A DNA stretch of 64,000 nucleotides. Source: Candidatus Eiseniibacteriota bacterium (GTDB lineage Bacteria; ARS69). The stretch covers positions 1-64,000 of the forward strand of contig JBQTGV010000001.1 in the NCBI GenBank assembly GCA_052390515.1, given 5' to 3'. The notes below the pieces were generated by a model. The model did not search any database. It was not told the origin of the DNA and worked only from the letters and a program-made list of their open reading frames with translations. The translations under genes and the position numbers were made by a program. This document shows positions 4,622 through 50,763 of the stretch, one piece after another (within the stretch, counting starts at the first letter, position 1; the number at the start of each line of letters is the position of its first letter).

Positions 4622-4677
4622 GACCGCATTGTACCCTGCTCCCGCGAAAACGTGCAAAATGGGCCGTGGAGGTGCGG

Positions 4678-5838: not shown

Positions 5839-5895
5839 GAATCCCTCCCGAGAAGGAAGGATCATGACGGCCTCGCTCGAGTTCGCTCGCCATCC

Positions 5896-8163: not shown

Positions 8164-8244
8164 GCCGATCCGCTATCACCCGGCCGGCCGCTTGCGCTAG
8201 GATGGACCTCCCGCCCTCCTCAGCCTCCACGCGACCTGGAGGTC

Positions 8245-10863: not shown

Positions 10864-10934
10864 CCCGCCGAGGCGGCCCGGCTTCTACTTCGCGAAGCTC
10901 CTGCTCGGATCCAAGGTGCGGGCGACGAAGCTCG

Positions 10935-13424: not shown

Positions 13425-13528
13425 CCTCGGGTCCGGTCCGTTCCGCCCCCGGGGGTCCGTGGGTCGGGCAGGGTGATCTTACGGTATCGGATCGCGCGGC
13501 GGAAACCCCCGGCACGGCGCGGGCCGGA

Positions 13529-36846: not shown

Positions 36847-37379
36847 AAGCGGCTCTGCCGGCTGCGTGCCTCGCCGTGCTGGCCGCGCTCGTCCCCACAT
36901 TCGCAGGAGCCGACGCGGGCGGTGCAGGCGACGCGGGCAGTCCGGCCGACGACGACGCCCGCCGCGAACCTTCGCTCTGGACCGTCGGCGCGGGCCGCTC
37001 CGGCTTCCGCGATGCTCCGGTCGCCGGGCTTCTGGCCGTCACGTACCACCATCGCCCGCTGGCCGGACCGGTCCGGCCGCTGGCAGGCGCGCTCGCTTCC
37101 GGGGACGGCAGCGGCTTCCTCTTCGGCGGATTGAGCTGCGACCTCGAGCTTCGCAGCGGGCTCGGAGCGACGCCGATCCTCACCGCCGGGTACTACGAGC
37201 GCGGCGGCGGCATGAACCTGGGCGGGGCGTTCGAGTTCCGTTCGGGGTTCGAGATCTACCATCGCGTGGGCAGCTTCTCCCGCGTCGGGCTCAGCATCCA
37301 CCACGTCTCCAACGCGGGGTTCTACGATCGGAATCCCGGGCAGGAGACGCTTTTCCTGTCGTACGGGGTGGCGCGGTAG
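36843..37379 (+). CDS. PagL-like outer-membrane acyloxyacyl hydrolase / lipid A deacylase
   Basis: Signal peptide; FEFRSG, HHVSNAG...NPGQE catalytic motif, beta-strand pattern. ATGA coupling. Confidence 0.82.
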   Translation: MKAALPAACLAVLAALVPTFAGADAGGAGDAGSPADDDARREPSLWTVGAGRSGFRDAPVAGLLAVTYHHRPLAGPVRPLAGALASGDGSGFLFGGLSCDLELRSGLGATPILTAGYYERGGGMNLGGAFEFRSGFEIYHRVGSFSRVGLSIHHVSNAGFYDRNPGQETLFLSYGVAR

Positions 37380-37382
37380 ACG

Positions 37383-39278
37383 TCAGCCCGCGCTCCACGA
37401 CCGCAAGTACGCATCCAGCGCGGCCCGCTCCTCCGCCGTGCCCACCGCGTCCCGGAACATCGCCGCGACGCGCCGCGTCTCCGGATCCGCGGCTCCGTCC
37501 GCGACCGCGCCGAGCTCGGCCTTCGCCTCCGCCGGACGCCCGTGCAGCGCGAGCGCGAGCCCCCGTTGCAGGCGCACCTTCCAGGCCGGCGGCGAAGCAT
37601 CGGCCATCCGCGACGCCTCGCGCTCCGCCTCCGCCGGCCGCCCCGCGAGGTTCAGCGCCATGACCAGCTCCCACTGCGCGGCCTCGTTCCCCGGCTCGTG
37701 GCGAAGCGCCTCGCGCAGCTGCGCCGCCGCCTCGTCGAAGCGGCCGGCGCGCAGTGCGATTCCGCCGAGATTTTGCCGCGCCAGCGACCAGAGCGGGCGA
37801 AGCTCCGGCCGCGTCTCCGGCGGCTCGACGGTGCGGAGGAAGCGCTCGAGCTTGCGCCGCGCGTTGTCGTGGAATCCGTTCTCGAAATCGCGACCGGCCA
37901 TGGCCACGTCGACCAAGTCCTTGGGATCGAAGCCCTCCCGGCGAAGCTCCTCGGGAGCGGTGCGTGCAACCGGCGGCGTCGCGGCCGGCGCCCCCGCCGG
38001 CCCGCCCCCGGCCGCGTAGCCGAGCGCGCGCAGCGCCTCCATGCGCTCGTCGTCCGGCGCGACCGGCTCCGCCCACCCGGAACGAATCCCGATCGTCTGG
38101 AGCACGAGGTCCTCGAGCTCATCGGCGAGCTCCTCCACTTCGCCCTCGCGCTCCGCCGCGAGATCCCGTGTCTCGCCCGGGTCGGCGACCACGTCGTACA
38201 GCTCCGGCCTCGGCGCCCAGACCAGCTTCCGATCCCGCGTGCGCAGCGCCTTCACCGGCGAACCGCCCCAGAGCCGCGGCTGCACCGTTTCGCAGTAGGC
38301 CACGGTTCCGGGGATGGGACCCTCGCCGCGAAGCACCGGGACGAGACTGCCCCCGGCGCCGAACGCGGGCGGTGCGCCGGCGAGGTGCAGGAGCGTCGGC
38401 GCGACGTCCACCGTCCGCACCACCTCCGAGAGCACCGTGCCAGCGGGCACAAGCGGTCCTCTCAACAGGAGCGGCACTCTCACGGTCTCGTCGTACAGCA
38501 AGATCCCGTGCTCGTCCTCGCCGTGATCATCGAGCCCTTCCCCGTGATCCGCGGTCACCACCACGGCGGCGCTCTCCGGGATCTCCCGCGCGAAGCGGCG
38601 TAGCTCGTAGTCCATGCACTCGATCTCGGCGAGGTAGCGGTCCGCCTGCGTGCGGTTCCAGGGCGGCGGCGCGTCGTACGGGAAGTGCGCGTCATAGAGG
38701 TGCAGCCACAGGAAGAAGCGCGACCCGCCACCGGCCAAGCGGCCAACCGCCGCGGTCGCGCGCGCCACCGCCTCGTCCGCGCGGCGGTCCACCGCGGGCA
38801 GCCAGTGCCGCTCGCGCGGGAAGACGGACTCGTCCTGCACCTCGTACGGCGAGGTCAGGGAGTCGTCGAACGCGTCGAATCCCTGCGCGATCCCGGTCGC
38901 CGCCTCCAGCACCCGGGAGGAGACGACCGCCTCGGTGCGGAAGCCGAGCTCGCCGAAGCGCTCGGCGAGCGTCGGCGCCGCTTCGCCCAGCCGCGCGTCG
39001 CCGTTGGTGCGCACTCCGTGATAGAGCGAAGGCGTCCCGGTGAACATCGTGACGTGGCTCGGCAGCGTGAGCGGCACGTCGGCGAAGGCGTGCTCGACGA
39101 TGGCTCCGGTCCTCGCCCACGAGTCGAGCAGCGGCGTCCTCACGTCCGGGCATCCGTACACGCCGATGCCGTCGGCGCGCGTCGTGTCCAGCGTGATCAG
39201 GATCACGTCGCGGCGCGGCGCCGGAGGGCCCGCACACCCGGCGATCAGCACGCAGAGAAAGATCCCCGACGGACGCAT
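37383..39278 (-). CDS. Sulfatase-like / alkaline-phosphatase-superfamily lipoprotein with C-terminal TPRs
   Basis: Lipobox IAGC; LITLDTTRAD, TLPSH, HLYDAHFPY, TADHGE, ELYD, LRALGY, TPR helices. Confidence 0.85.
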   Translation of the reverse strand: MRPSGIFLCVLIAGCAGPPAPRRDVILITLDTTRADGIGVYGCPDVRTPLLDSWARTGAIVEHAFADVPLTLPSHVTMFTGTPSLYHGVRTNGDARLGEAAPTLAERFGELGFRTEAVVSSRVLEAATGIAQGFDAFDDSLTSPYEVQDESVFPRERHWLPAVDRRADEAVARATAAVGRLAGGGSRFFLWLHLYDAHFPYDAPPPWNRTQADRYLAEIECMDYELRRFAREIPESAAVVVTADHGEGLDDHGEDEHGILLYDETVRVPLLLRGPLVPAGTVLSEVVRTVDVAPTLLHLAGAPPAFGAGGSLVPVLRGEGPIPGTVAYCETVQPRLWGGSPVKALRTRDRKLVWAPRPELYDVVADPGETRDLAAEREGEVEELADELEDLVLQTIGIRSGWAEPVAPDDERMEALRALGYAAGGGPAGAPAATPPVARTAPEELRREGFDPKDLVDVAMAGRDFENGFHDNARRKLERFLRTVEPPETRPELRPLWSLARQNLGGIALRAGRFDEAAAQLREALRHEPGNEAAQWELVMALNLAGRPAEAEREASRMADASPPAWKVRLQRGLALALHGRPAEAKAELGAVADGAADPETRRVAAMFRDAVGTAEERAALDAYLRSWSAG

Positions 39279-39353
39279 CGCGGCATCGTAGCGCGCCCGG
39301 CATCATCCCGCCACGGTGGCCGCCCATCGGACACGGTGGTACCATGCATCGCC

Positions 39354-41144
39354 ATGTCGGGATGCGACCAGATCGTTCTTCTGCTCGGAGGCGCGGGCCT
39401 GGTCGGCTTCCAGTGCGCGCGCCACATCTCGCGGGACCTGCGCCCGCGGCGCGTGGTGCTGGTCTCGCTGTATCGTCAGGAGACCGCCGACGCGGTCGCC
39501 GCGCTCTCCAACGAGTTCCCCGAAATCGACGTGGCCGGCTACTACGGCAACCTCTTCGTCCGCGGGGAGCCGACTCCGGTGGACCGGCAGGCGCCGGAAC
39601 CCTCGCCGCGCGAGTTCGCCGAGGTCGCCGCGAACCGCCAGGCGATCTTCGCCGATCTCTTCGGCGACTTCGAGACGGCCTATCGAGAGTCGTTTCTCGC
39701 ACGCCTTCTGCGGAGAGAGCGCCCGGGCGCCGTCATCGACTCGGTCAACACGGCGACGGCCATCAGTTACCAGGACATCTTCTCGAGCTCGTTCATCGTC
39801 TCCCGGGACCTCGAGGAGGCCCGCGCCGCCCACGACGTCTCCGACGCGTTCACCGCCGACGTCGAGAAGCACCTGATCTCCGGCGCCGTGCCGCAGCTCA
39901 TCCTGCACGTTCGGCTGCTGCACCGTGCGCTCGTGGAGGCCGGCACGCGCATCTACGTCAAGGTGGGAACGACGGGGACGGGCGGCATGGGGCTCAACAT
40001 CCCGTACACGCACGGCGAGGACAAGCCCAGCCCCACATTGATGTCCAAGACGGCGACCGCCTTCGCGCAGACCGGGCTGCTCTTTCTCATGGCGCGCACG
40101 CCGTCTTCGCCGATCATCAAGGAGATCAAGCCGGCGGCGATGATCGGCTACAAGCGCATCGGCTTCCAGCCCGTGCGCGGGCTGCAGTATCGCGCCAACG
40201 GAACCGGCGGCGTGCGCCTCGCGACCGACGAGCCTTATCACCTGTTCCGCGCCCGCGAACAGACTCTCGGCGAGACGCTGGACACCGAGCCGCGCTTCGA
40301 CGGGTTCGCCGCGGTCCACGACGCGTCGGGGAATCGAGCCACGCTGACCATCCCCTGCGTGAACACCGGCGAGAACGGGACCTTCGCGCGGGGGGAGTTC
40401 GAGGCGATCACCGCGCTCGGGCAGATGGAGTTCGTGACGCCGGAGGAGATCGCGCAGCTCGTGACCCTGGAGATCCTGGGAAGCAACACCGGCCGAGACG
40501 TCATCTCCGCGGTCGACTCGACCATCCTCTCCCCCTCGTACAAGGGCGGACTCATCCGCCGCGTCGCCATCGACGAGCTGGACAAGCTGGAGCAGGAGCG
40601 GGGCGTGCCGTCCATCGCCATCGGCCAGCTCGGTCCCCCGCAGCTGGCCAAGTACCTCTACGAAGCGCACTTCTTCCGCGAGCTGTACGGGACGGTGGAG
40701 GGCGCGCTGCGGGAGGCCGGCGGCGCGCCGCGCACCGCCGCGTCCGTCTCCGCGGCGATGAGCGCGCACGTTCTGGCCAGCCCCCTGCGCGACACCATCA
40801 CCTCGGTGGGGATCCCCATCCTGATGCCCGACGGCAAGACGATCCTGCGCGGGCCGGTCATCCGCATCCCTCCGTACAATCGCAAAGCCCACGTCTTCCC
40901 GCTGGGCAACGGGAAAGTCGACGAGTTTGCCGAGCGCGGCTGGGTCGATCTGCGCGAGCGACACATGGCCTGGTGGCTCGAGCAGTTCGGCCGCATGCGG
41001 GAGTCCGTGCTGCGGCGGGAGACGAAGTGGAGCTCCGAGCGGCTCGACATTCGCTCGTATCTGTCCGAGGAGATCCGTATCGGCGAGGTCGTCGCCTGGA
41101 TCTTCAACAACGTGATCGAACCGCCGGGACACCGGATCAAGTAG
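39354..41144 (+). CDS. Long NAD(P)-binding Rossmann-fold protein (SDR-like), function unknown
   Basis: VLLLGGAGLVG at the N-terminus; IDSVNTATAI, VKVGTTGTGGMGLNIPYTH. 596 aa. Confidence 0.7.
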   Translation: MSGCDQIVLLLGGAGLVGFQCARHISRDLRPRRVVLVSLYRQETADAVAALSNEFPEIDVAGYYGNLFVRGEPTPVDRQAPEPSPREFAEVAANRQAIFADLFGDFETAYRESFLARLLRRERPGAVIDSVNTATAISYQDIFSSSFIVSRDLEEARAAHDVSDAFTADVEKHLISGAVPQLILHVRLLHRALVEAGTRIYVKVGTTGTGGMGLNIPYTHGEDKPSPTLMSKTATAFAQTGLLFLMARTPSSPIIKEIKPAAMIGYKRIGFQPVRGLQYRANGTGGVRLATDEPYHLFRAREQTLGETLDTEPRFDGFAAVHDASGNRATLTIPCVNTGENGTFARGEFEAITALGQMEFVTPEEIAQLVTLEILGSNTGRDVISAVDSTILSPSYKGGLIRRVAIDELDKLEQERGVPSIAIGQLGPPQLAKYLYEAHFFRELYGTVEGALREAGGAPRTAASVSAAMSAHVLASPLRDTITSVGIPILMPDGKTILRGPVIRIPPYNRKAHVFPLGNGKVDEFAERGWVDLRERHMAWWLEQFGRMRESVLRRETKWSSERLDIRSYLSEEIRIGEVVAWIFNNVIEPPGHRIK

Positions 41145-41152
41145 GCGCGCCG

Positions 41153-44100
41153 ATGACCGGAACCGATCTCTCCTCCGGAGCCGCGTTCGACGCCGGCTTG
41201 CTCGCGCGCGTGCGCGACGCGCTCGTGCCGCTGGAGGCGGGGCCGGCGGGCGCGGACCGCGGCGTCGCCGCGGCAGCCACCGCCCTGCTCCGCGCCACCC
41301 GCGAGACGCTGCAGAAGCTGTCCGAGGCGGAGCCCGCCGGAGCGCACGGCTACCGCTCCCTGCTGCACCGCGTTCTGGAGGCCGCCGCCTCGCGCGGGGT
41401 GCGCACCGCCTTCGCCTCCACGCCCTTCGCCGCCGAGTGGACCGAGCTGCTGCTCGAGGCGGTGACCGCCTCGGACTACACCACCGGGCGGCTGTTCTTC
41501 TCCAGGGCGCGCGCGCTCGGCGACCGTACGCTCTTCCTGCTGCCCTGGACCCGTCGCGAGGGGCGCGTGTCCTGGCGTGAGGCGGAAGCGCGCGTGCTCG
41601 ACATCGGCCGGGCGTTGCTCGCGTCGAAGGCCAGGGATCCGACCGGGGGTCCGATCGCCGTCCTCGGGGCGAACTCGCCGGAGCTCGCGCTTTTCGACCT
41701 CGCGTGCCTGGTTTCCGGAGCGGCCGACGTGCCCGTTCCGGCGAACTCCACGCCGGCGCAGGTCGAGTTCATCCTGGGACACTGCCGCGCGTCGGCACTC
41801 TTCCTGGGAGACGAGGAAGCCGCGGCGGTGGCGGCTCCGGCCCTGAACTCCTCCAGGATTCCGGCTTGGTGGCTGCCAGAGGAGGCCCCGCCCTCCGATC
41901 GCATCCGACCCTTCCGCGAGTTCCTCGATCTCGGCGCCGGCGTTTCGCCCGAGGACGCGCGTCACACCTCCGCCACGGTGCGGTCCGGCGACCTCGCCAC
42001 GATCATGTACACGTCCGGCACGACGGGTGCGCCGAAAGGCGTCCCTTTCACCCACGCGAACCTCGTGACGACGCGGTTCGCGCGCGCCGCGGCCTGGCCG
42101 GACATCGGCGAGGGCGACGTCTTCCTCTGCTACCTGCCCCTCTATCACACGTTCGGCAGGTGGCTGGAGATGCTCGGCTGCGTGTTCTGGGGATCGGTGT
42201 ACGCGTTCGTGGACGACGCCTCCATCGAGCCGCTGCTCCATTCCTTCGCGCGCGTGCGTCCGACGACCTTCATCTCCGTTCCGAAGAAGTGGATGCAGAT
42301 CGCGGAGGCGGTGGCGCCGCTGGACGAGGCCGAGCCGACGTCCGCCGCGGACAAGGCGCGGATGGCGCGGGAGCTCGTGGAGAGGACCGGCGGACGGCTG
42401 CGCCGAGGACTCTCCGCCGCGGGCTACCTCCCGCCCTCGGTGTTCCGTCGCTTCCACGCCGCGGGCATCGAGCTGCACTCCGGCTTCGGCATGACCGAGG
42501 CGACCGGCGGGATCACCATGACCCCCGCGGCCGACTACCGCGACGACTCCATCGGACTGGCCCTGCCGGGCATCGAGCTGCGCGTGGCCGAGGACGGCGA
42601 GCTGCTCATCCGCGGACCTTACGTGACCCCGCCCGCCGCCGACGAGCCCCCCCGCGAGGACGGCTGGCTGGCCACCGGGGACATCGTGCGCGTCGACGCG
42701 CAGGGCCACTATCGCATCGTCGACCGCAAGAAGGAGATCTTCAAGAACGTGCAGGGTGAGACGATCTCGCCGCGCCGCATCGAGACTCTCTTCGAGGACT
42801 TCGATTCGGTCGAGCGCGTCCTCGCCGTGGGAGACCGGCGCGAGTACTGCGCGGCGCTCATCGTTCCGAGCGCGGAGCTGCGGACCGACTTCGCCTCCTC
42901 CCGCCGGGGCGACACGCTCGAGTCGCTGGAGCTGCGCGAGATCTTCGCCCCCGTTGTCGAGGCGGTGAACCGTTTCCTCGCGCCCTTCGAGCGCATCCTG
43001 GACTTCGCGGTGCTGGCCGAGGATCTCGACCCCGAGAAGGAGCTCACCGCGAAGGGAACGCCCAAGCGGAGCGTCGTGGGCGAACGCTTCGCCGAGGTGA
43101 TCCGCACCATCTACGCTCGGGAGCAGGTGGCGGTGACCGTCGGCGACGTGGAGTGCAAGCTGCCGCAGTGGTTCCTGCGAAACACCGGCATCCCCGCCGG
43201 CGAGGTCCGCGCGGAGGGCTCGGAGCTCGTGGCCGCGGGGCGAAGGCTCGCCGTGCGCCGCGAGAAGAGCGGGATCGTCGTCGGCGATGCCGTCTACGAT
43301 CCGGGAGGAGCGGATCTCCTCCTCGGCGAGATCTTCGGGCGCGCGCGGCTCTGGCTCGGGAACGACGCGGTGCGCCGCTTCGCCGGCTCGGGGATCGAGC
43401 ACTGGTGGCGGCGCGGCGTTCGCTTCCCGACCCGGACGCGGCTGGTCCGACGCATGCCCCTCGCCGGAGCACCGGACGTCCCGTCCCCGCTGGCGCGGTC
43501 CGTCACCATCGGGGATCTGCACGCGGCGGCCCGCGTGCTGGCCGATCCCGACGCGGCACGACGCCGGGAAGCGGTCGTTCGGCTTGGCGAGACGCTGGCC
43601 AGCGAGGCGCGGGACGCCGACCCGATGACCAAGGAGATCCTGCTCTCGTGCTTCTCCGACCCGGACGTGCGCGTCGAGGCGCTGCGCGCGGTGGCGCGCT
43701 CGCTGTCGCCCGCGCAGCTCGATCGTCTCGTCACCGAGCGGCTGCCCTTCGACCCGAGCTTCCTGACGCCGGAGGAAGCGGCGGAGCTCGGTCCGATGAC
43801 TCTGCGCAGCGACCAGCTGGACGTGCTCGTCGCGCGGGCTCGGGCCTGGTGCGAGCCGGACGCCGGCGTGCCGGCGCACGCGCTCGACCGACTGCTCGGC
43901 TGGCTGCGGCGCGTCGCGGTCGAGCATCCGGAGAGCCACCTCGCGGTGCGCTCGCTCCTCGTGGACCTCGCCGAGCTTCCGCTGGACGACGCGCTCCGCG
44001 AGCGACTCGAGGACCACCTGGGGACTCTGGTCCGCGAGTTCCGCGCGCGGCTCCCCGCTCCCGCCACCGCCGACGGCGTTACCTGGGAGCAGGCCGTCGA

Positions 44101-45856
44101 GCTGGACGGCGTCTCGCCGGACGACGGCGCGCGCATCCGCCGGGCGATCGCGGCAGAGAAGCTGCTGCCCGAGGCGATGGCTCTCTTCGGAACGAGCCCG
44201 GCGCGGGATCTGCCGCCGCTCGCGGCGCGCTCGGTGCGGATCTCCCTGCTCGGACTCGGCGAGGGACGCTCCGTCAACCTGCTGGAGTGGTCGCCCGCCG
44301 GCCTCGACCACGGTCCGCCGCGCTTCGAGTGCGTGGTGAAGGCGGACCGCGGCGTCGGGTGGAGCGAGGTCCAGGAAGAGATGCGGCTGCTGGTGCGGGC
44401 GCGCACCGGCGAATCGGGGCGACCCATCGTCAAGACGCAGGGCGGCGGATACCGCGAGCACGGCGTGTGGACCGAGGAGTTCGTGCCGGGCAAGTCCCTG
44501 GACGAGCTGGTCGACGCGCTCGCCGCCGAGGACGACGGCGCCGGCGCCCGGCTCCGCGAGCTCTGGCCCTTCCTCGTCTCCTCCTGCGCGGCCCTGGTCG
44601 TGGACTTCTGGCGAAGAACGGGACGCCGCGTGACGCTCTCGAAGGCCTCGGCGGACAAGCTCGTGCTGCCGGACCATGACTGGCTCGTCGGCGGCCGCCT
44701 CGTCTCCATCGCCGAGCGCCGCCAGTGCGAGCGGCTGACGGACGTGCTCGCCGGCGTGCACTCGGGAATCGTGCTTCCGATCGCCGAGCGGCATGCACGC
44801 GCCGAGCTCGACACCGCATGGCCGCAGCTCCTCTCGGCCGCGCTCGAAGTGCTCGGCGAAGTGGAGGGGTGCGCGCGCCTCGAAGAGGAGGAAGGCGGCC
44901 TCGATCCCGACGGCGAGCTCGCCGGGGCGATCCGCCGCTTCGTTTCGGGCGTGCGCCGGCGCGGGTTCCTGCCGCTGCGCATCCGCGTCGCGGCGCGGCG
45001 CTACCGCAGGTGGCAACAGATCAACGCCGACGCGACGCTCGAGGCACAGGCGGCCACGCTGGACCAGATCGAGGACGCGTACGGCCTGGGCGATCTGGAC
45101 CGGGACCGCCCCGGCTCCCGCCTGCAGCTCTTCCGCCACACCGTGTTTCGCGGATCGGGCGAAGAGTTGACCAAGGGACTCGACGAGCTGATCGCCAAGG
45201 GGCTGGCCTCGCCGCCGGCGCTGGCGGAGCTGCACCGCGAGGTCACCCACCTCCGGGACACGGCGCACCCCAGCGAGCTCGACGAGTTCTTCCTGGCGCG
45301 CATGCTCTATCCGCACGTCGATCCGCGCGGCCGCGCCGTGCTCGTGCGCGAGGAGGACCAGCCCGGCGAGTTCGACACCGGCGTGGCGGTGGAGCACGTC
45401 GACTCGGAGGGCGAAGTCTTCCGCATCCGCCGCCCGGCCAACCCGGGAGAGATCGCCGCGCTCGGCCGGGTGTTCCGGGCCGCGGGTATTCGACGGCTTC
45501 CGCGCGCCGGCGAGGACGACCTCCTGCTGGTGACCGACTCGGACGAGCGCGTGCTTGGCGGGCTCATCTCCCGGCGCATCAGCGACACGTACGTGCGGCT
45601 GGACTGGCTCGCGCTGGGCCGGCACCGCCGGGCCCGCGGCATCGGCTCCATCCTGATCCGCGAGTTCCTGGAGCGGCTCCGGGCGCAGGGAGTGCGGGTC
45701 GTCTCCACCGGATTCTTCCGTCCGGCATTCTTCGCCAATTTCGGCTTCGGCGTGGATCCACGCTACGCCGGTCTCGTCCGCTTCCTGGACGCGGAGAGCC
45801 CGGCCCCCTTGCCCGGGGTCAAGCCGACCCGCGACGATTCCGAACGGGAACGGTAG
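41153..45856 (+). CDS. Multidomain protein: AMP-dependent acyl-CoA-synthetase domain, helical region, kinase-like segment, C-terminal GNAT
   Basis: IMYTSGTTGAPKG, GFGMTE, WLATGD, VDRKKEIFK; later LGLGEGRSV...VVK...EEM...EFVPGKSL; C-terminal LALGRHRRARGIGSILI...FFANFGF. About 1567 aa from the ATG at 41153. Confidence 0.8.
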   Translation: MTGTDLSSGAAFDAGLLARVRDALVPLEAGPAGADRGVAAAATALLRATRETLQKLSEAEPAGAHGYRSLLHRVLEAAASRGVRTAFASTPFAAEWTELLLEAVTASDYTTGRLFFSRARALGDRTLFLLPWTRREGRVSWREAEARVLDIGRALLASKARDPTGGPIAVLGANSPELALFDLACLVSGAADVPVPANSTPAQVEFILGHCRASALFLGDEEAAAVAAPALNSSRIPAWWLPEEAPPSDRIRPFREFLDLGAGVSPEDARHTSATVRSGDLATIMYTSGTTGAPKGVPFTHANLVTTRFARAAAWPDIGEGDVFLCYLPLYHTFGRWLEMLGCVFWGSVYAFVDDASIEPLLHSFARVRPTTFISVPKKWMQIAEAVAPLDEAEPTSAADKARMARELVERTGGRLRRGLSAAGYLPPSVFRRFHAAGIELHSGFGMTEATGGITMTPAADYRDDSIGLALPGIELRVAEDGELLIRGPYVTPPAADEPPREDGWLATGDIVRVDAQGHYRIVDRKKEIFKNVQGETISPRRIETLFEDFDSVERVLAVGDRREYCAALIVPSAELRTDFASSRRGDTLESLELREIFAPVVEAVNRFLAPFERILDFAVLAEDLDPEKELTAKGTPKRSVVGERFAEVIRTIYAREQVAVTVGDVECKLPQWFLRNTGIPAGEVRAEGSELVAAGRRLAVRREKSGIVVGDAVYDPGGADLLLGEIFGRARLWLGNDAVRRFAGSGIEHWWRRGVRFPTRTRLVRRMPLAGAPDVPSPLARSVTIGDLHAAARVLADPDAARRREAVVRLGETLASEARDADPMTKEILLSCFSDPDVRVEALRAVARSLSPAQLDRLVTERLPFDPSFLTPEEAAELGPMTLRSDQLDVLVARARAWCEPDAGVPAHALDRLLGWLRRVAVEHPESHLAVRSLLVDLAELPLDDALRERLEDHLGTLVREFRARLPAPATADGVTWEQAVELDGVSPDDGARIRRAIAAEKLLPEAMALFGTSPARDLPPLAARSVRISLLGLGEGRSVNLLEWSPAGLDHGPPRFECVVKADRGVGWSEVQEEMRLLVRARTGESGRPIVKTQGGGYREHGVWTEEFVPGKSLDELVDALAAEDDGAGARLRELWPFLVSSCAALVVDFWRRTGRRVTLSKASADKLVLPDHDWLVGGRLVSIAERRQCERLTDVLAGVHSGIVLPIAERHARAELDTAWPQLLSAALEVLGEVEGCARLEEEEGGLDPDGELAGAIRRFVSGVRRRGFLPLRIRVAARRYRRWQQINADATLEAQAATLDQIEDAYGLGDLDRDRPGSRLQLFRHTVFRGSGEELTKGLDELIAKGLASPPALAELHREVTHLRDTAHPSELDEFFLARMLYPHVDPRGRAVLVREEDQPGEFDTGVAVEHVDSEGEVFRIRRPANPGEIAALGRVFRAAGIRRLPRAGEDDLLLVTDSDERVLGGLISRRISDTYVRLDWLALGRHRRARGIGSILIREFLERLRAQGVRVVSTGFFRPAFFANFGFGVDPRYAGLVRFLDAESPAPLPGVKPTRDDSERER

Positions 45857-45864
45857 GAGGGGCG

Positions 45865-47547
45865 ATGGAGACGAGACCGTGGCACTCGGCCTATGACCCG
45901 GGCGTCCCGCCCACGATCGACTACGCGAACGTGCCGCTGCACGGGTTCCTGCGGCGGGCGGCCGCCCGCTTCCCGGATTTCGCCGCGGTGTGCTTCCTGA
46001 ACCGCACCTTCACCTACCGCGAGCTCGATCACTACGCCACCCGCTTCGCTCGCGCGCTCGAGGACGCCGGCGTCGTGAAGGGGGATCGCGTGGCCATCCA
46101 GCTGCCCAATCTCCCGCAGACGGTGATCGCGTTCTTCGGGACGCTGCGTGCGGGCGCGGTGGCGGTGATGACCAATCCGCTCTACACCTCGCGGGAGATC
46201 GAGCACCAGTGGAACGACGCCGGCTGCAAGGTCGCGGTGACGGCCGACTTCCTCTACCGGAAGAGCGTGGCAAAGGTTCGCGACCGGCTTTCCGTCGAGA
46301 CTTACGTGATCGCCCGCATTCCCGAGTACCTGCGCTTCCCGCTGAACGTGCTGGCGCCGCTCAAGCTGAAGCGCGAGGGACTCATGGCGGACGTGCCGCG
46401 GGCGAAGAACGTCTTCCGCTTCCGGGAGTTCGTGGACGCGGCGCTGGTCATCCGGCCGGAGATCCCCCTGGAGATGAGCGACCTCGCCGCGCTGCAGTAC
46501 ACCGGGGGCACGACCGGCGTGCCCAAGGGCGCGATGCTCACGCACGGGAACCTGTCGTGGCAGGCACAGCAGCTCCACGCCTGGCTGCCGGATCTCGAGC
46601 CGGGCAAGGAGGTGTTCCTCTCGGCGCTCCCCTTCTTCCACGTGTTCGGGCTGACCGTCGCGATGAGCCTGCCCGTCGAGCTCGGCGCGACGATGGTGCT
46701 CATGCCCAACCCGCGGGACGTCGAGGCGATGATCGACGCGATCAATCGCCGGGCCGTGACGATCTTCCCGGTCGTCCCGGCGATGGTGCACGGGATCAAC
46801 CAGCATCCGAACGCCGCATCCCTCGAGGTGAAGGGACTCAAGATCTGCGTCTCGGGGTCCGCGCCGATGCCGGAGCCGACGCTGCGCCGCTTCGAGGAGC
46901 TGACCGGTGGGAAGATCGTCGAGGGTTACGGGCTGACGGAGGCTTCACCGGTGACTCACGTGAACCCGAACCGCGGGCGCCGCAAGGTGAACACCATCGG
47001 GCTGCCGCTTCCCGATACGGATTGCCGCATCCTGTCGATGAAGGATGGGACGACGCCGGTGGGCCCGGGCGAGGACGGCGAGCTCGTGATCCGCGGGCCG
47101 CAGGTCATGGCCGGGTACTGGAAGCGGCCGGACGAGACCGCCCATGCCATCCGCGACGGTTGGCTGCACACCGGGGATCTCGCCGCCGCCGACGAGGACG
47201 GCTACTTCCGCATCTCCGGACGGCTCAAGGACCTGATCCTGTGCTCCGGCTACAACGTGTACCCGGACGAGGTGGACCGGATCATCGTGGAGCATCCCGC
47301 CGTGCTCGAGTGCGCGACGATCGGCGTGCCCGATGAGAAGCGGGGCGAGTCGGTGAAGTCGTTCGTCGTGCGGCGGCCCGGCGCCGACCTCTCCGCCGAC
47401 GAGCTGACCGCGTGGTGCCGCGACCGCCTCGCGGCCTACAAGGTGCCGCGGAGGATCGAGTTCCGCGCGGAGCTGCCCAAGAGCAGCGTGCTCAAGATCC
47501 TGCGGCGGCAGTTGCTGGAGGAGGAGCTGGCGGGGCGGGGGAAGTAG
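45865..47547 (+). CDS. fadD: Long-chain fatty acid--CoA ligase
   Basis: LQYTGGTTGVPKG, LPFFHVFG, EGYGLTEASP, GPQVMAGYW, WLHTGD, NVYPDEVD, LAAYKVP. AGGAGG RBS. Confidence 0.9.
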   Translation: METRPWHSAYDPGVPPTIDYANVPLHGFLRRAAARFPDFAAVCFLNRTFTYRELDHYATRFARALEDAGVVKGDRVAIQLPNLPQTVIAFFGTLRAGAVAVMTNPLYTSREIEHQWNDAGCKVAVTADFLYRKSVAKVRDRLSVETYVIARIPEYLRFPLNVLAPLKLKREGLMADVPRAKNVFRFREFVDAALVIRPEIPLEMSDLAALQYTGGTTGVPKGAMLTHGNLSWQAQQLHAWLPDLEPGKEVFLSALPFFHVFGLTVAMSLPVELGATMVLMPNPRDVEAMIDAINRRAVTIFPVVPAMVHGINQHPNAASLEVKGLKICVSGSAPMPEPTLRRFEELTGGKIVEGYGLTEASPVTHVNPNRGRRKVNTIGLPLPDTDCRILSMKDGTTPVGPGEDGELVIRGPQVMAGYWKRPDETAHAIRDGWLHTGDLAAADEDGYFRISGRLKDLILCSGYNVYPDEVDRIIVEHPAVLECATIGVPDEKRGESVKSFVVRRPGADLSADELTAWCRDRLAAYKVPRRIEFRAELPKSSVLKILRRQLLEEELAGRGK

Positions 47548-47614
47548 GGCCGCCTTGCCCCGGGTGGCACGACGGAGTAGGGTAGGGCGTTCCCTCTTCG
47601 CGAGGGAGGCCTCT

Positions 47615-48715
47615 ATGCTGGCACTGCAGCGGTTCTCCGCGGTGGCGGTCTTCGTCTGGCTCAGCCTTCCCGTTCATGCCGCGACGATTCGCGTCCCCCA
47701 GGACCAGCCCACGATCAAGGCCGCAGTCGCCGCCGCGAATGCAGGTGACGTCGTACTCATCGCTTGCGGAAACTACGTCGAGAACGGGATCGTCGTGACG
47801 GTCCCCATCCAGTTGAAGAGCGAGACGGGCGATCCTTCCTGCGTTTCCGTCGACGCCTCGGGTGGCATCGCGTTTCATGCGTTCGGATCGGGTAGCAGCA
47901 TCACCCTGGATGGCATCCGCGTGTACCGCGGCTATCGCGGCCTGTCTTCCTCGGTCGCCACCACGATTCGATCCTGCGTCTTCGAGACGCTGGGGGCCGC
48001 CCCTGCCGGCTACGGCTATGCCGACGGTGGAGCCATCTCCGTGTCTGGGGTGACGGACGTCTACGACAGCGAGTTCCGCTGGAACTTCGCGGCGAACGGC
48101 GGCGCGGTCATTACTGGCCCCAATGCCGCCTTCTACCGTTGTCTGTTCGCTCACAACTTCGCCCTGGAAAACGGCGGCGCCATCGCCTCTTCGTCCTTGA
48201 ACACACGGCTCGTCGACTGCCTGTTCTTCCGCAACCAGTCGCTCGGCGGAGGATTCGGCGGAGCGCTGTACGCGGCGTCCAACGCATTCGTGAGCGGATG
48301 CACCTTCATCGAGAACGCCGCTGGCTTCGAGGCCGGCGCAGCCATGTACCTCACGGGAACCGCCCAGGTGGTCAACACCCTGATCGCGGTCAACTACGGC
48401 GGGGGCGCGGTCCGTTGCTCGGGCTCTCCGACGTTCTCCTGCTGCGACATCTACGGAAACGCGTACGGGGACTGGGTCTCGTGCATCGCTGGCCAGCTGG
48501 GCGTGAACGGGAACTTCTCCGCCGACCCGCTCTTCTGCGATTTGGCCGCCCGCGTGTTGACCCTGGACGCCGAGTCGCCCTGTCTGCCGGGAAACCACCC
48601 CGCGGGCTCCGCCTGCGGCCAGATCGGGAGGTTCGGGATGGGCTGCACCGTCGTCTCAGCGGGCCACGGACTGACGAGTGCCCCGTGGGGTCGGGTCAAG
48701 TCCCTGTACCGCTGA
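47615..48715 (+). CDS. Secreted right-handed beta-helix (Pmp/pectin-lyase-like) protein with C-terminal PWGRVKSLYR
   Basis: Signal peptide, VPQDQPTIKAAV, repeated FxxN/GGA(I/V/L) units, NFSADPLFC, SPCLPG. GGAGG RBS. Confidence 0.82.
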   Translation: MLALQRFSAVAVFVWLSLPVHAATIRVPQDQPTIKAAVAAANAGDVVLIACGNYVENGIVVTVPIQLKSETGDPSCVSVDASGGIAFHAFGSGSSITLDGIRVYRGYRGLSSSVATTIRSCVFETLGAAPAGYGYADGGAISVSGVTDVYDSEFRWNFAANGGAVITGPNAAFYRCLFAHNFALENGGAIASSSLNTRLVDCLFFRNQSLGGGFGGALYAASNAFVSGCTFIENAAGFEAGAAMYLTGTAQVVNTLIAVNYGGGAVRCSGSPTFSCCDIYGNAYGDWVSCIAGQLGVNGNFSADPLFCDLAARVLTLDAESPCLPGNHPAGSACGQIGRFGMGCTVVSAGHGLTSAPWGRVKSLYR

Positions 48716-49957
48716 CCTCGTCGCATACCCCCGCGTCACGCCGCCCCCGCGCTCTCCCCCGGCCCCCTCGGCGTACACGACGATCAGAACTCCGAGCGTC
48801 GAGAGCAGTGTGACCCCGGCGTGACTGTACGTCCACCAATCGCCGGCGAGCCGATAGCCGGCCACGCTCGACGCGATCACTGACGCAAGCAGGACCGCCG
48901 CCGTCGGAGAGAACCTCCGCCCCGCGCGACTGATCCGCCACGCCGCCCACACCTGAAGAAACGGAAGGAACACGAAGTAGTGCGGCCACGCGGTCGGGAT
49001 GATCAGCGGAATCGAGAGGGACAGCAGGGCGAATGCCGGAATCGGGTCCGAGCCCGGACGGCCGCGCATCCACCGGCCGAGCAACACCAAGTTCATCGCG
49101 AAGAGCGCGCCGGCCGCCCAGCGAAGCGCCGTTCTCGTCCCGGAGCCGTCCTCCCCCAGCGGACGAGCGGCTCCGTCCGCCCGGTAGCTCCAACGCTCGA
49201 CGACGTGAGGAAGGTACTGCGAGTTCACGTCCACCGTGATCTTCGCTCGATCGGTTTCCATGTTCGCCGCCGCGTCGCGGTAGAAGCCGATCGTGTCCCG
49301 CGGTCCCAGCACGAGCGCGGGAAGCAGGAACCCGAAGGCCGCCCAGCCCGCCGCGAACCACGCGAGGAACCTCCAGTCCCTGCGAAAGAGAAAGTACGCG
49401 AGGTAGACGACCGGATAGAACTTGATGCTCACGGCGAAGGCCAGCACGAGCGCCGCCGCGACGACGCGACGATACCCGTAGAGGAACATCGATCCGAAGG
49501 CCAGGAGGGTCATCAGGACGCTGACCTGGCCCCACTTGAAGTTGTGCAGCACGGGCATCGAAGTGAGGAACACGAGCACGTAGGCCCAGAACAGCACGCG
49601 GCCGCGCCGCACCAACCACGGACCGGGAACGAGGAGCAGGCCCAGCATCCAGAGCCCCTGCAGGACTCCCCAAGCAGTGAGCGCTCCGGGCAAGGAGAGC
49701 GCCCCGAGCGGGGCGATCAGAACGGCGAACGTCGGAGAGTAGTAGTAGCCGGGGTAGGGCCGGCGTCTCTCGAGGAGGTCCTCCGCCACCGGATGGAATC
49801 GCATCGTATAGTCCGCGAACAACCGGGGGTTGATGTCCACTTCGCGGACGAAATCGCGCGTGGAATCCCACGTGCTCGTCCAGGCCAGCCAGACCAGCGC
49901 GACCGTCGCGGCGACGAAGGCCAGCGCCGCCCACCGCTTGGGGGCCGATCCCGTCAC
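48656..49957 (-). CDS. GT87/DUF2029-like membrane glycosyltransferase (GT-C)
   Basis: YYYSPTFA, NFKWGQVS, SIKFYP, NSQ, PTAWPHY. GTG start overlaps the ZIP stop codon. Confidence 0.78.
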   Translation of the reverse strand: MTGSAPKRWAALAFVAATVALVWLAWTSTWDSTRDFVREVDINPRLFADYTMRFHPVAEDLLERRRPYPGYYYSPTFAVLIAPLGALSLPGALTAWGVLQGLWMLGLLLVPGPWLVRRGRVLFWAYVLVFLTSMPVLHNFKWGQVSVLMTLLAFGSMFLYGYRRVVAAALVLAFAVSIKFYPVVYLAYFLFRRDWRFLAWFAAGWAAFGFLLPALVLGPRDTIGFYRDAAANMETDRAKITVDVNSQYLPHVVERWSYRADGAARPLGEDGSGTRTALRWAAGALFAMNLVLLGRWMRGRPGSDPIPAFALLSLSIPLIIPTAWPHYFVFLPFLQVWAAWRISRAGRRFSPTAAVLLASVIASSVAGYRLAGDWWTYSHAGVTLLSTLGVLIVVYAEGAGGERGGGVTRGYATRSAVQGLDPTPRGTRQSVAR

Positions 49958-50763
49958 AGCCCCACTTGCACCAGCGCCATCAGGCCGAATCCCGCGAGGA
50001 ACATCCACGCCATCTCCGCCCGCGTGTGCCTCACGAGCGCCTCCGGCACGAGCTCCATGAGCACGAGGTACATCATCGCGCCGGCGGCGAAGCCGAGGAA
50101 CGGAAGCAGCAGCGGCTCGAACAGCCACACGAGCAAGCCCGACGGGACCGCCGCGATCGGCTGCGGCAGGCTGGTCAGGAAGGCGAAGAAGAAGCAGCGG
50201 AAGAGCGACGCGCCGGCCAGCCTCATCGGCAGCGCCACGGCCAGCCCCTCGGGGATGTTGTGGATGCCGATGGCGATCGCGATGTAGTGGCCGAAGTGGT
50301 CGACGTGCAGGTGCGTCTCGGAGCCGTAGCCCACGCCGACCGCCACTCCCTCGGGAATCGAGTGCGCGGTCATGGCCACGAACACGAGGGCCGACGTCCG
50401 GCCGCCCACTCCCTTGAGCACGCCCGACTCCAGCCGCTCCGGCGTCAGGTACTTCTCGAGCATCCACAAGAACGCCGCGCCGACCGCCATGCCGCCGAGC
50501 GTCTTCACGACGGGCCACAGCTCCGTGGCGCCGTCGGTGCCCATGGTGAAGGCCGGCATCAGCAGGTTGTACACCGAGGCGGAGAACATGAGCCCGCCGG
50601 CGAAGGCGTAGCCGAGCCCGACGCGTTCCTGCAGGCGAAGGCCGGAGAACGCCAGCGGGATCGCGCCGAGTCCGCAGGCCAAGCTGGCCAGGATGCCGGC
50701 GAAGAACGCCCACGCGACGAACGCGTAGTCGCCGAAGTTGTCGGCGAAGAACCCGTCAAGCAC
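49954..50763 (-). CDS. ZIP-family metal transporter (GufA/ZupT-like)
   Basis: HSIPEGVAVG, IHNIPEGLAV, FAAGAMMY, ELVPE. Confidence 0.93.
   Translation of the reverse strand: MLDGFFADNFGDYAFVAWAFFAGILASLACGLGAIPLAFSGLRLQERVGLGYAFAGGLMFSASVYNLLMPAFTMGTDGATELWPVVKTLGGMAVGAAFLWMLEKYLTPERLESGVLKGVGGRTSALVFVAMTAHSIPEGVAVGVGYGSETHLHVDHFGHYIAIAIGIHNIPEGLAVALPMRLAGASLFRCFFFAFLTSLPQPIAAVPSGLLVWLFEPLLLPFLGFAAGAMMYLVLMELVPEALVRHTRAEMAWMFLAGFGLMALVQVGL

What the first reader, a model, noticed from the sequence alone, without database searches (positions are those of the whole stretch)
39354..47547. Three-gene acyl-handling operon: long Rossmann protein, giant adenylation/pseudokinase/GNAT fusion, acyl-CoA ligase
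Seen: three same-strand genes with 8-nt gaps, preceded by an extended -10 (TGG-TACCAT, 39337-39345). They encode a 596-aa NAD(P)-binding protein, a ~1567-aa protein with an adenylation domain at one end and a GNAT at the other, and a canonical FadD. Known: Pat-type GNATs acylate and switch off AMP-forming acyl-CoA synthetases, and bacterial ceramide synthesis uses a GNAT plus an NAD(P)H reductase. Inference: this is either an activate/transfer/reduce lipid or N-acyl-amide pathway with no carrier protein, or a self-contained acylation switch controlling FadD. I know of no described system with this architecture.
Basis: partly seen in the sequence, partly recalled or inferred. Interest (0 to 1): 0.85.

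Follow-up and report, generated by a model that had tools for sequence, protein, structure and literature searches.

The report
Ligase–kinase-like–acyltransferase fusion gene beside FadD
The three genes are real, but the conserved unit is the giant middle protein, an uncharacterised fusion of a fatty-acid-activating enzyme, a kinase-shaped domain and an acyl-transfer domain that stands alone in other bacterial groups.

Summary
The anatomy is confirmed. There are three + strand genes: g1 (39354-41144), g2 (41153-45856) and g3 (45865-47547), separated by 8-nt gaps.

- **g2 (1567 aa)** has four parts. The first is an ACSL/FadD11-like AMP-forming ligase with intact catalytic motifs. Then come a helical (HEAT-like) stretch, a protein-kinase-like fold lacking the canonical catalytic residues, and a Gcn5-like GNAT.
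- **Not a chimera.** Full-length relatives occur in all 11 other species of this small phylum and in 12 of 389 sampled genomes elsewhere. Source names for homologs include Acidobacteria and Anaeromyxobacter.
- **The three-gene unit is lineage-specific.** In all 12 distant genomes g2 has neither g1 nor a separate FadD nearby, and no conserved neighbour.
- **g1** belongs to a large SDR-like family (more than 7,600 homologs). Elsewhere this family often sits between rluB and cmk, and it is missing from one genus of this phylum.

My best reading (about 0.5) is that g2 alone is a self-contained two-step N-acylation enzyme: carboxylate to acyl-CoA to amide. The acceptor is unknown. FadD is a lineage-specific companion.

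A Pat-like switch acting on FadD remains possible but is weakened, because FadD lacks the glycine of the PX4GK motif.

No description of this architecture turned up in the paper searches I ran. I rate it a new variant of known kinds, of moderate interest.

The parts
39337..39345 (+). TGG-TACCAT string, proposed as an extended -10 element 8 nt ahead of the g1 ATG; function untested
   Evidence: The sequence is present. The consensus scan found no sigma-70-like site in 39000-49200. No RNA run is listed.
39354..41144 (+). g1: 596-aa SDR-like Rossmann protein with a large C-terminal extension; its homologs carry the label PF27054; substrate unknown
   Evidence: Frame plot and translation showing GGAGLVG. 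More than 7,655 homologs, 46-92% identical among the 120 listed. Atlas clusters are named 'short-chain dehydrogenase'. The model has pLDDT 80.8 and Foldseek returns only SDR-type hits, to the N-terminal half.
41153..45856 (+). g2: 1567-aa fusion protein, the conserved core of the finding
   Evidence: Full-length relatives.
41504..43123 (+). g2 aa 118-657: AMP-forming acyl-CoA-synthetase module (ANL superfamily, ACSL/FadD11-like), with N-terminal and C-terminal subdomains
   Evidence: Pfam AMP-binding 209 bits and AMP-binding_C_3 49.5 bits. [quoted passage not shown] PDB sequence matches are carboxylic acid reductase A-domains, luciferases and FadD5. The P-loop, GFGMTE, DRKK and C-terminal lysine motifs are kept, with conservative substitutions at single positions, in 26 of 26 full-length homologs.
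43130..44194 (+). g2 aa 660-1014: a small beta-rich domain followed by a helical, HEAT-like repeat region
   Evidence: Secondary structure of the model. Weak HEAT_2 hits in 4 of 16 family members, best E 0.0011. Foldseek alignments to the PI3K/Vps34 helical-plus-kinase region.
44219..45319 (+). g2 aa 1023-1389: protein-kinase-like fold without the canonical catalytic residues (pseudokinase-like)
   Evidence: Foldseek matches RIO1 (4jin) at E 7.8e-5, TM 0.53 by target, and JAK kinase domains at TM 0.42-0.44. The element order matches a kinase fold. The beta3 lysine is present only in the clade at least 45% identical to the window, and is N, I or V elsewhere. 'FWxRTG' stands where HRD would be, and a 'P.HD' motif is conserved. 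No kinase Pfam hit.
45383..45808 (+). g2 aa 1411-1552: Gcn5-like GNAT acyltransferase domain
45865..47547 (+). g3: 560-aa FadD-like AMP-forming acyl-CoA ligase
   Evidence: Pfam and NCBIfam matches. It lies directly downstream of g2 in 9 of 9 fetched loci of the phylum. The C-terminal motif LPKSSVLKILRR is conserved in 9 of 9.
47615..48715 (+). g4: secreted right-handed beta-helix protein on the same strand; probably not part of the unit
   Evidence: Pfam Beta_helix. A signal-peptide-like N-terminus follows the internal Met. No match above 80 bits in any of the 10 related loci.

Best explanation
The functional unit is the giant protein g2 by itself. It is a member of a small, uncharacterised family, sparsely spread across several phyla.

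Proposed mechanism, step by step:
1. The N-terminal ACSL-type ligase adenylates a carboxylic acid, by annotation most like a long-chain fatty acid, and forms the CoA thioester.
2. The C-terminal Gcn5-type GNAT uses that acyl-CoA in cis to N-acylate an amine.
3. The helical and kinase-like middle part, which lacks the catalytic lysine and aspartate, acts as a scaffold, or as a site that binds the acceptor or an effector.

The acceptor is not identified. A protein lysine and a small amine are about equally likely.

In this phylum g2 is co-transcribed with a FadD-like ligase (g3) and usually with an SDR-like oxidoreductase (g1). These are lineage-specific companions, not obligatory parts.

Shown: the gene structure, domain identities, conservation of the ligase motifs, the fusion being the rule, and the distribution. 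Inferred: every catalytic step, the acyl donor, the acceptor and the role of the middle domain.
For: - **Ligase is under catalytic constraint.** The P-loop, GFGMTE, DRKK and C-terminal lysine motifs are kept in 26 of 26 full-length homologs that are only 21-54% identical to the window over the C-terminal part.
- **The fusion is the rule.** The homologs listed are mostly 1,450-1,660 aa. A profile of the middle module finds 437 cluster representatives among 1.84 billion. In every listed protein of 1,470 aa or more, the module lies between about residues 690 and 1,530. A search for shorter forms gave 20 hits, most on contigs under 4 kb and only 5 on contigs over 16 kb.
- **g2 stands alone elsewhere.** It occurs in 12 of 389 sampled genomes outside the phylum, always as an open frame of 1,534-1,738 aa. 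There is no g1, no separate FadD and no conserved neighbour in 12 of 12 loci.
- **Tight g2-g3 packing inside the phylum.** Gaps run from -4 to about 60 nt, with overlaps in 3 of 8 loci (ATGA once, TGATG twice).
Against: - No activity has been measured.
- The Pfam GNAT score is marginal (22.4 against 20.7).
- The most divergent clade (L022, P0239-P0242) has a degraded CoA loop.
- GNATs normally draw on the free acyl-CoA pool, so a fused ligase need not feed the GNAT.
- A second ligase (g3) next door has no role in this reading.
- The within-phylum linkage may be inherited synteny.
Confidence: 0.5

Rival explanations
1. g2 is a Pat-like acylation switch. Its GNAT acylates the catalytic lysine of an AMP-forming ligase and switches it off. 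The target would be the neighbouring FadD (g3) or g2's own ligase domain. The kinase-like module would be a sensor, and the ligase domain would couple the switch to free fatty-acid supply.
For: - Large multidomain proteins with a C-terminal GNAT are the class I lysine acetyltransferases, whose N-terminal part is synthetase-like or regulatory (passage of PMC6456759).
- AMP-forming ligases are the classical targets of such enzymes (abstracts of PMC11619455 and PMC4053389 in the listings).
- The nearest PDB sequence match of the GNAT is a protein acetyltransferase, GCN5 (E 1.5e-8).
- A stand-alone gene without biosynthetic neighbours in 12 of 12 distant loci suits a regulator.
- FadD is a constant neighbour in this phylum.
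Against: - g3 reads LPKSSVLKILRR in 9 of 9 members of the phylum, with leucine where the PX4GK acetylation motif has glycine.
- g2's own C-terminal lysine lies in ELTAKGTPKR, which is also not PX4GK.
- No Pat-type NDP-forming synthetase domain is present.
- Known switches use general donors and need no fused, catalytically intact ligase.
- FadD is not adjacent in 12 of 12 distant genomes.
Confidence: 0.17
2. The three genes form one small-molecule pathway. The ligases activate acids, the GNAT forms an N-acyl amide, and g1 performs an NAD(P)H-dependent reduction. The product would be a lipid or lipoamino compound made without a carrier protein.
For: - The three genes are tightly packed on one strand. 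g1 lies directly upstream of g2 in 6 of the 9 fetched loci, and also on contig C136 of G009.
- Contigs from two other studies bridge the g1/g2 and g2/g3 junctions in close relatives.
- In one unrelated genome (G027) a g1 homolog sits on one strand with an NAD-epimerase and an ACSL-like ligase.
- g1 and g2 co-occur outside the phylum more often than chance: 5 of 12 g2-positive genomes against 14 of 377 g2-negative ones, Fisher p 1e-4, not corrected for relatedness.
Against: - g1 was not found in genus g8 (3 genomes, 95-98% complete), which keeps g2-g3. There a divergent gene lies upstream of g2.
- In the 5 distant genomes that have both genes, the two lie on different contigs.
- The g1 family is about an order of magnitude larger than the g2 family. 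In 6 to 8 of 18 distant loci it sits in a scpA-scpB-rluB-g1-cmk-rpsA context.
- No transporter, carrier protein or other lipid-synthesis gene is conserved nearby.
Confidence: 0.13
3. g2 is essentially a long-chain acyl-CoA synthetase. Its C-terminal kinase-like and GNAT-like domains are non-catalytic and serve for regulation, oligomerisation or localisation. g2 and g3 would then be two parallel fatty-acid-activating enzymes of ordinary lipid catabolism.
For: - Only the ligase motifs are uniformly conserved.
- The kinase-like domain lacks catalytic residues.
- The GNAT CoA loop is degraded in the most divergent clade, and the Pfam GNAT score is marginal.
- Source annotations often call the protein 'long-chain acyl-CoA synthetase'.
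Against: - About 900 residues are conserved from end to end across phyla, with many invariant positions in the C-terminal half.
- Most members keep the CoA-loop motif and the beta4 acidic residue.
- The GNAT model is confident, with block means of pLDDT about 80-92 over most of the domain.
Confidence: 0.15

Closest known systems
Pat / YfiQ / PatZ (class I-alpha bacterial lysine acetyltransferases)
   Same: A large multidomain protein with a single C-terminal GNAT and an N-terminal part related to acyl-CoA synthetases. Its known targets are AMP-forming acyl-CoA ligases, like the neighbouring g3.
   Different: Pat's N-terminal part is an NDP-forming synthetase-like, non-ANL domain (passage of PMC6456759). 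g2 instead has an AMP-forming ANL ligase with intact motifs, plus a helical and kinase-like insert. No Pat-type domain was found by Pfam. g3 also lacks the glycine of PX4GK.
Mycobactin lipidation genes (FadD33/MbtM ligase, MbtL carrier, MbtK GNAT, MbtN dehydrogenase)
   Same: An ANL ligase activates a fatty acid and a GNAT puts it on an epsilon-amino group, and a redox enzyme is in the same locus. MbtK's role comes from a passage of PMC12305045 and FadD33's from a reference title there. The MbtL and MbtN roles are recalled from memory.
   Different: That system consists of separate proteins and depends on a carrier protein. Here the ligase and GNAT are one chain, no carrier protein is present, and the redox partner (g1) is an unrelated SDR-like protein that is dispensable in one genus.
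Two-enzyme amide conjugation (xenobiotic/medium-chain acyl-CoA ligase plus glycine N-acyltransferase in mammals)
   Same: The same chemical logic: acid to acyl-CoA by an AMP-forming ligase, then transfer to an amine by a GNAT-fold enzyme. This comparison is recalled from memory and was not checked in a paper here.
   Different: Those are separate, unrelated proteins in eukaryotes, with no kinase-like module.
AAC(6')-Ie/APH(2'')-Ia bifunctional aminoglycoside-modifying enzyme
   Same: One chain combines a GNAT with a kinase-fold domain, and both act on one small amine-bearing substrate (recalled from memory).
   Different: That kinase domain is catalytically active and sits after the GNAT, and there is no ligase domain. 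I found no sequence relationship; no APH Pfam hit appeared.
   Same: An N-acyltransferase and an NAD(P)H-dependent reductase working on a lipid amide (recalled from memory).
   Different: No serine palmitoyltransferase gene is in the cluster. The only PLP enzyme nearby is a serine hydroxymethyltransferase (546 bits to SHMT). g1 gave no hit to Epimerase/NmrA-type Pfam families. The g2 GNAT is embedded in a 1567-aa fusion.

Membership tests
ANL superfamily, AMP-forming acyl-CoA synthetase (g2 aa 118-657) | AMP-binding N-terminal domain and C-terminal subdomain score above the curated Pfam cut-offs | tested here: met
   PF00501 scores 209.3 bits (cut-off 29.9) and PF23562 scores 49.5 bits (cut-off 20.8).
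ANL superfamily, AMP-forming acyl-CoA synthetase (g2 aa 118-657) | Core catalytic motifs are present and conserved: P-loop (Y/F)TSG(T/S)(T/S)G, G(F/Y)GM(T/S)E, the hinge (D/G)R(K/I/V)K, and the C-terminal catalytic lysine | tested here: met
   All are present in the window protein and in 26 of 26 full-length homologs.
ANL superfamily, AMP-forming acyl-CoA synthetase (g2 aa 118-657) | Forms acyl-AMP and then acyl-CoA; chain-length preference | not testable with these tools
GNAT superfamily (g2 aa 1411-1552) | GNAT fold | tested here: met
GNAT superfamily (g2 aa 1411-1552) | Pyrophosphate-binding loop R/Q-x-x-G-x-G/A | tested here: met
   RARGIG in the window protein. The motif is kept in most rows of the 35-row alignment and is degraded in L022, P0240, P0241 and P0242. 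The motif definition is recalled from memory.
Pat/YfiQ-type (class I-alpha) protein acetyltransferase | NDP-forming acyl-CoA-synthetase-like domain fused to the GNAT | tested here: not met
   Pfam finds only AMP-binding, AMP-binding_C_3 and GNAT families in g2. The class definition comes from a passage of PMC6456759.
Pat/YfiQ-type (class I-alpha) protein acetyltransferase | Target ligase carries the PX4GK acetylation motif | tested here: not met
   g3 has P-K-S-S-V-L-K in 9 of 9 members of the phylum. The motif is as given in PMC11619455.
Protein-kinase-like superfamily, active kinase (g2 aa 1023-1389) | Bilobal kinase fold | tested here: inconclusive
Protein-kinase-like superfamily, active kinase (g2 aa 1023-1389) | Conserved beta3 lysine and catalytic-loop aspartate/asparagine | tested here: not met
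   The lysine is present only in the close clade and is N, I or V elsewhere. 'FWxRTG' stands at the expected HRD position. I placed these positions from the alignment and the model's secondary structure, not from a residue-level superposition.
[quoted passage not shown] | Full-length match above NCBIfam's curated cut-off for a FadD equivalog | tested here: not met
   Best scores are 533.8 bits (cut-off 1116), 529.8 (766) and, for FadD NF006523, 467.1 (884). The Pfam AMP-binding and AMP-binding_C domains are clearly met.
Short-chain dehydrogenase/reductase superfamily (g1) | Rossmann fold with a glycine-rich dinucleotide motif | tested here: met
   G12, G13, G15 and G18 are invariant in 27 sequences. 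Foldseek hits are SDR and extended-SDR enzymes at E 2e-5 to 2e-4, with TM about 0.45 by target, to the N-terminal half.
Short-chain dehydrogenase/reductase superfamily (g1) | Catalytic Ser ... Tyr-x-x-x-Lys | tested here: inconclusive
   The invariant residues include S138-Y139 and Y201-x-K203, but no clear YxxxK. No residue-level superposition was done.
Bacterial ceramide pathway (Spt, bCerS, CerR) | Serine palmitoyltransferase gene with the acyltransferase and the reductase | tested here: not met
   None is among the flanking genes scanned in 29472-57890. The rest of the genome was not searched for one.
Carrier-protein-dependent N-acylation (mbt-2 type) | Acyl carrier protein in the cluster | tested here: not met
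   No PP-binding hit in g1-g4 or their neighbours. The 8-nt gaps leave no room for a small gene.

The most novel reading that the evidence does not exclude
g2 founds a new type of bacterial protein acyltransferase: a 'fatty-acid-fuelled' lysine acyltransferase. It would make its own acyl-CoA from a free carboxylate and use it, on a pseudokinase docking scaffold, to acylate target proteins such as FadD. Nutrient fatty-acid supply would thereby be wired directly to protein acylation. No class in the current scheme of prokaryotic lysine acetyltransferases (classes I-III, passage of PMC6456759) has an AMP-forming ligase or a kinase-like module.
Probability: 0.2. Interest if true: 0.8.

Novelty: new variant of a known kind. 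Interest (0 to 1): 0.5.

Why it matters
If g2 works as proposed, it shows that a GNAT can be hard-wired to a dedicated acyl-CoA-making enzyme in one polypeptide, with a dead-kinase scaffold between them. That arrangement is not in the current schemes of bacterial acyltransferases.

It would also give a biochemical handle on a family that sources now label either 'GNAT family N-acetyltransferase' or 'long-chain acyl-CoA synthetase'. The family is found in poorly studied phyla, and also under the source name Anaeromyxobacter, which may offer cultivable carriers.

The result corrects the picture of the locus: the operon is a lineage-specific arrangement, not a conserved three-part system.

As a by-product it flags g1's family. 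This is a very widespread SDR-like protein of 570-620 aa with no known substrate, often placed between rluB and cmk, and it deserves a study of its own.

Tried and rejected
1. **g1 as a substitute prephenate dehydrogenase.** The idea came from three observations. g1 relatives sit upstream of cmk-rpsA. In G380 a g1 relative lies between an aminotransferase and pheA. The window's own genome gives no PF02153 match, while 14 of 14 control genomes do. I rejected it because 11 of 19 distant g1-positive genomes do have PF02153, and genus g8 lacks both genes.
2. **610-aa ORF upstream of g2 in G011 as a diverged g1.** It is an arginine-rich shadow frame. The coding frame there is a divergent + strand gene.
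3. **'1 TGA' inside g2 of G001**. It is simply the gene's natural stop codon.
4. **g4 as a fourth operon member.** It is not conserved in relatives.
5. **Defence-system membership.** 0 PADLOC hits for the 4 proteins.
6. **Sequence-level kinase membership.** No kinase Pfam family was hit in the 16 members scanned at E up to 10.
7. **The search for related loci on genome contigs with alignment A1.** It failed because no stretch was conserved enough.
8. **Complex prediction of the g2 C-terminal part with g3.** Binding is untested.
10. **Second Atlas look-up on the middle region.** It failed.
12. **Expression.** No RNA holder is listed for this stretch.
13. **Promoter and terminator scan.** 0 sites of either kind in 39000-49200.
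14. **Paper searches** for the architecture or for the PF27054 name found nothing relevant. Supplementary files of papers were not consulted.

Full report
**What is in the sequence.**
The window is about 70% GC, so long open frames occur in several frames at once. Among them are a 2170-aa ORF at 39344-45856 and minus-strand ORFs of 609 and 1655 aa. A positional GC plot settles the coding frames. Third-position GC of about 0.86-0.98 marks three + strand genes:
- g1 at 39354-41144 (596 aa);
- g2 at 41153-45856 (1567 aa);
- g3 at 45865-47547 (560 aa).

Upstream lies a minus-strand gene, 37383-39278, encoding a sulfatase with TPR repeats. Downstream lies a minus-strand GT87 gene.

The gaps are 8 nt (GCGCGCCG) and 8 nt (GAGGGGCG). 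The string TGG-TACCAT is at 39337-39345. A consensus scan finds no sigma-70-like promoter and no terminator-like site between 39000 and 49200, and no RNA run is listed, so the promoter remains a guess.

A fourth same-strand ORF follows. Its likely start is 47615, ahead of a signal-peptide-like segment. It encodes a beta-helix protein with no counterpart in related loci.

**The three proteins.**
*g2* carries these Pfam domains: AMP-binding (aa 118-492), AMP-binding_C_3 (533-657) and, marginally, a GNAT (1454-1519). [quoted passage not shown] Its PDB sequence matches cover only the ligase part.

*g3* matches FadD-type models end to end at E 3e-160. It scores below the curated cut-off of every one of the 25 best models shown, so it is FadD-like rather than a proven FadD.

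*g1* has no match in the local Pfam or NCBIfam libraries and none in PDB sequences. It does have more than 7,655 homologs, all of those listed carrying the precomputed label PF27054. Where sources name them, the names are 'hypothetical protein' or 'short-chain dehydrogenase'.

I modelled g1 from 27 sequences (pLDDT 80.8). Foldseek finds only SDR and extended-SDR enzymes, matching the N-terminal half (E from 2e-5, TM about 0.45 by target). The GGxGxxG motif is invariant.

**The C-terminal 900 residues of g2.**
A model of aa 660-1567, built from 35 sequences, is confident (pLDDT 86.7).
- **Kinase-like region.** Ahead of the GNAT, Foldseek aligns a region to RIO1 kinase (E 7.8e-5, TM 0.53 by target), to JAK kinase domains, and to the helical-plus-kinase part of PI3K and Vps34. 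The order of elements at aa 1028-1190 is that of a kinase N-lobe and the start of the C-lobe.
- **No catalytic residues.** The family alignment shows the beta3 lysine only in the close clade. 'FWxRTG' stands where the HRD loop would be. One aspartate, in 'P.HD', is conserved.
- **No sequence support.** No kinase Pfam family is hit in 16 members, only weak HEAT repeats in 4 of them.

**Which domains look catalytically alive.**
- **Ligase.** Its signature motifs, including the C-terminal catalytic lysine, are kept, with conservative substitutions at single positions, in 26 of 26 full-length homologs. These are only 21-54% identical to the window over the C-terminal part.
- **GNAT.** It keeps the R/Q-x-x-G-x-G/A loop (RARGIG in the window) in most rows of the alignment, but not in the most divergent clade. 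An acidic residue on strand beta4 is kept in all but 1 of 35 rows.

**Is the giant ORF real and how widespread is it.**
- All 11 other species of the phylum hold it. That phylum has only 12 species genomes in the collection, all in one family. Eight have a single full-length match at 52-61% identity. Two have it split over contig ends, and one has broken frames.
- A word-based search lists 120 relatives, mostly 1,450-1,660 aa. Source names include Gemmatimonadetes, Acidobacteria and Anaeromyxobacter.
- A profile of the C-terminal part finds it in 12 of 389 sampled genomes outside the phylum, always in an open frame of 1,534-1,738 aa.
- A profile of the middle module alone finds 437 cluster representatives among 1.84 billion. 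In every listed protein of 1,470 aa or more, the module lies between about residues 690 and 1,530. The shorter listed proteins cannot be told apart from contig-end fragments.
- A search for short forms gave 20 hits, most on contigs under 4 kb and 5 on contigs over 16 kb.
- Unitigs of a run that may be the source sample tile the stretch and bridge both junctions. Contigs from two other studies bridge g1/g2 (1,808 nt, 121 differences) and g2/g3 (421 nt, 11 differences) in close relatives.

The chimera alternative is refuted.

**Is the three-gene unit conserved.**
*Inside the phylum:*
- g3 follows g2 in 9 of 9 fetched loci. Ligase cross-matches show the same on the two fragmentary contigs.
- The g2/g3 spacing runs from -4 to about 60 nt, with overlaps in 3 of 8 loci.
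- g1 is found in 8 of 11 relatives. It is directly upstream of g2 in 6 fetched loci and on contig C136 of G009. In G008 the arrangement cannot be determined.
- g1 is not found in the three genomes of genus g8 (95-98% complete), whether queried with the protein or the profile. There a divergent gene precedes g2.
- The flanks are partly syntenic too, since M16 peptidase, GDSL lipase, ZIP and SHMT recur. Linkage among these relatives may therefore be inherited gene order.

*Outside the phylum:*
- In 12 of 12 loci, with about 7 kb of flank where the contig allowed, there is no g1, no separate FadD and no neighbour shared among loci.
- g1 is present in 19 of 389 genomes, 5 of which also have g2 but on other contigs. 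The enrichment (5 of 12 against 14 of 377, Fisher p 1e-4) is not corrected for relatedness.
- In 6 to 8 of 18 distant g1 loci the neighbours are scpA, scpB, rluB, cmk and rpsA. Other loci vary. One (G027) has g1, an NAD-epimerase and an ACSL-like ligase on one strand.

**How it most likely works.**
The simplest reading that uses all conserved parts has three steps:
1. The ligase makes an acyl-CoA.
2. The GNAT in the same chain spends that acyl-CoA on an amine.
3. The helical and kinase-like middle part holds the acceptor or an effector.

The same two-step chemistry exists as separate proteins. In mycobactin lipidation a ligase (FadD33) works with the GNAT MbtK, which acylates a lysine epsilon-amine (PMC12305045, passage and reference titles).

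I give this reading about 0.5, with the acceptor open between a protein lysine and a small amine.

The Pat-like switch on FadD is attractive by analogy with class I lysine acetyltransferases (PMC6456759, passage). It is weakened on three counts:
- g3 lacks the glycine of the PX4GK motif (PMC11619455, passage).
- g2 has no Pat-type domain.
- FadD is not adjacent to g2 outside this phylum.

The three-gene 'activate, transfer, reduce' pathway is weakened by the independence of g1. A plain ligase with non-catalytic appendages cannot be excluded.

**Novelty and value.**
The parts are known kinds (ANL ligase, GNAT, kinase-like fold). The fixed fusion of the three is not in the classification of prokaryotic acetyltransferases that I read. 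It also did not appear in four full-text searches. Only listings, abstracts and the quoted passages were seen, and no supplements.

I rate it a new variant of a known kind, with interest about 0.5. It is a well-defined family, one with source-named Anaeromyxobacter members, that merits biochemistry.

Noticed in passing
L099 (G061), L101 (G347), L096 (G171), L097 (G026), L108 (G311); g1 at window 39354-41144: Outside this phylum the g1 family (SDR-like, 570-620 aa, PF27054 label, more than 7,655 homologs) recurs in the order scpA-scpB-rluB-g1-cmk-rpsA. That is a housekeeping-like setting for a protein with no known substrate.
   Followed up: partly
G000 whole genome; G000:C155 (L110) 2984-8835: The window's genome (95% complete) and 9 of its 11 relatives give no match to prephenate dehydrogenase PF02153, although 14 of 14 control genomes do (13 of 14 in the larger run). 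The genome does carry DAHP synthase, aroA, cmk and rpsA together. The tyrosine-branch dehydrogenase of this phylum is unidentified, and g1 as the substitute was not supported.
   Followed up: partly
L103 (G027:C15) 5313-9784, minus strand: A g1 homolog, an NAD-dependent epimerase with DUF1731, and an ACSL-like ligase (AMP-binding plus AMP-binding_C_3) lie on one strand. This is a second, independent pairing of the g1 family with this type of ligase. The other genome of that family (G196) does not share it.
   Followed up: no
window 47555-48715: A beta-helix protein with a signal-peptide-like N-terminus (after the Met at 47615) follows g3 on the same strand. It has no counterpart in the related loci.
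   Followed up: partly
L021 (G005:C10) 6491-14749: In G005 (73% complete) g1, g2 and g3 are each broken into two or more frames, and two stop codons lie inside g2. This is either decay of the whole cluster or poor consensus quality in that assembly.
   Followed up: no
window 33656-39278 and 48656-50763: The cluster is flanked by envelope-related genes: a YfhO/PTPS-related membrane protein, a GDSL lipase, a sulfatase with TPR repeats, a GT87 glycosyltransferase and a ZIP transporter. Several of these (GDSL, ZIP, and also the M16 peptidase and SHMT) recur beside the cluster in relatives.
   Followed up: partly
L014, L015, L020 (g2/g3 junction): In three relatives the g2 stop and the g3 start overlap (TGATG twice, ATGA once). 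This suggests translational coupling of g2 and g3. In the window the two genes are 8 nt apart.
   Followed up: partly
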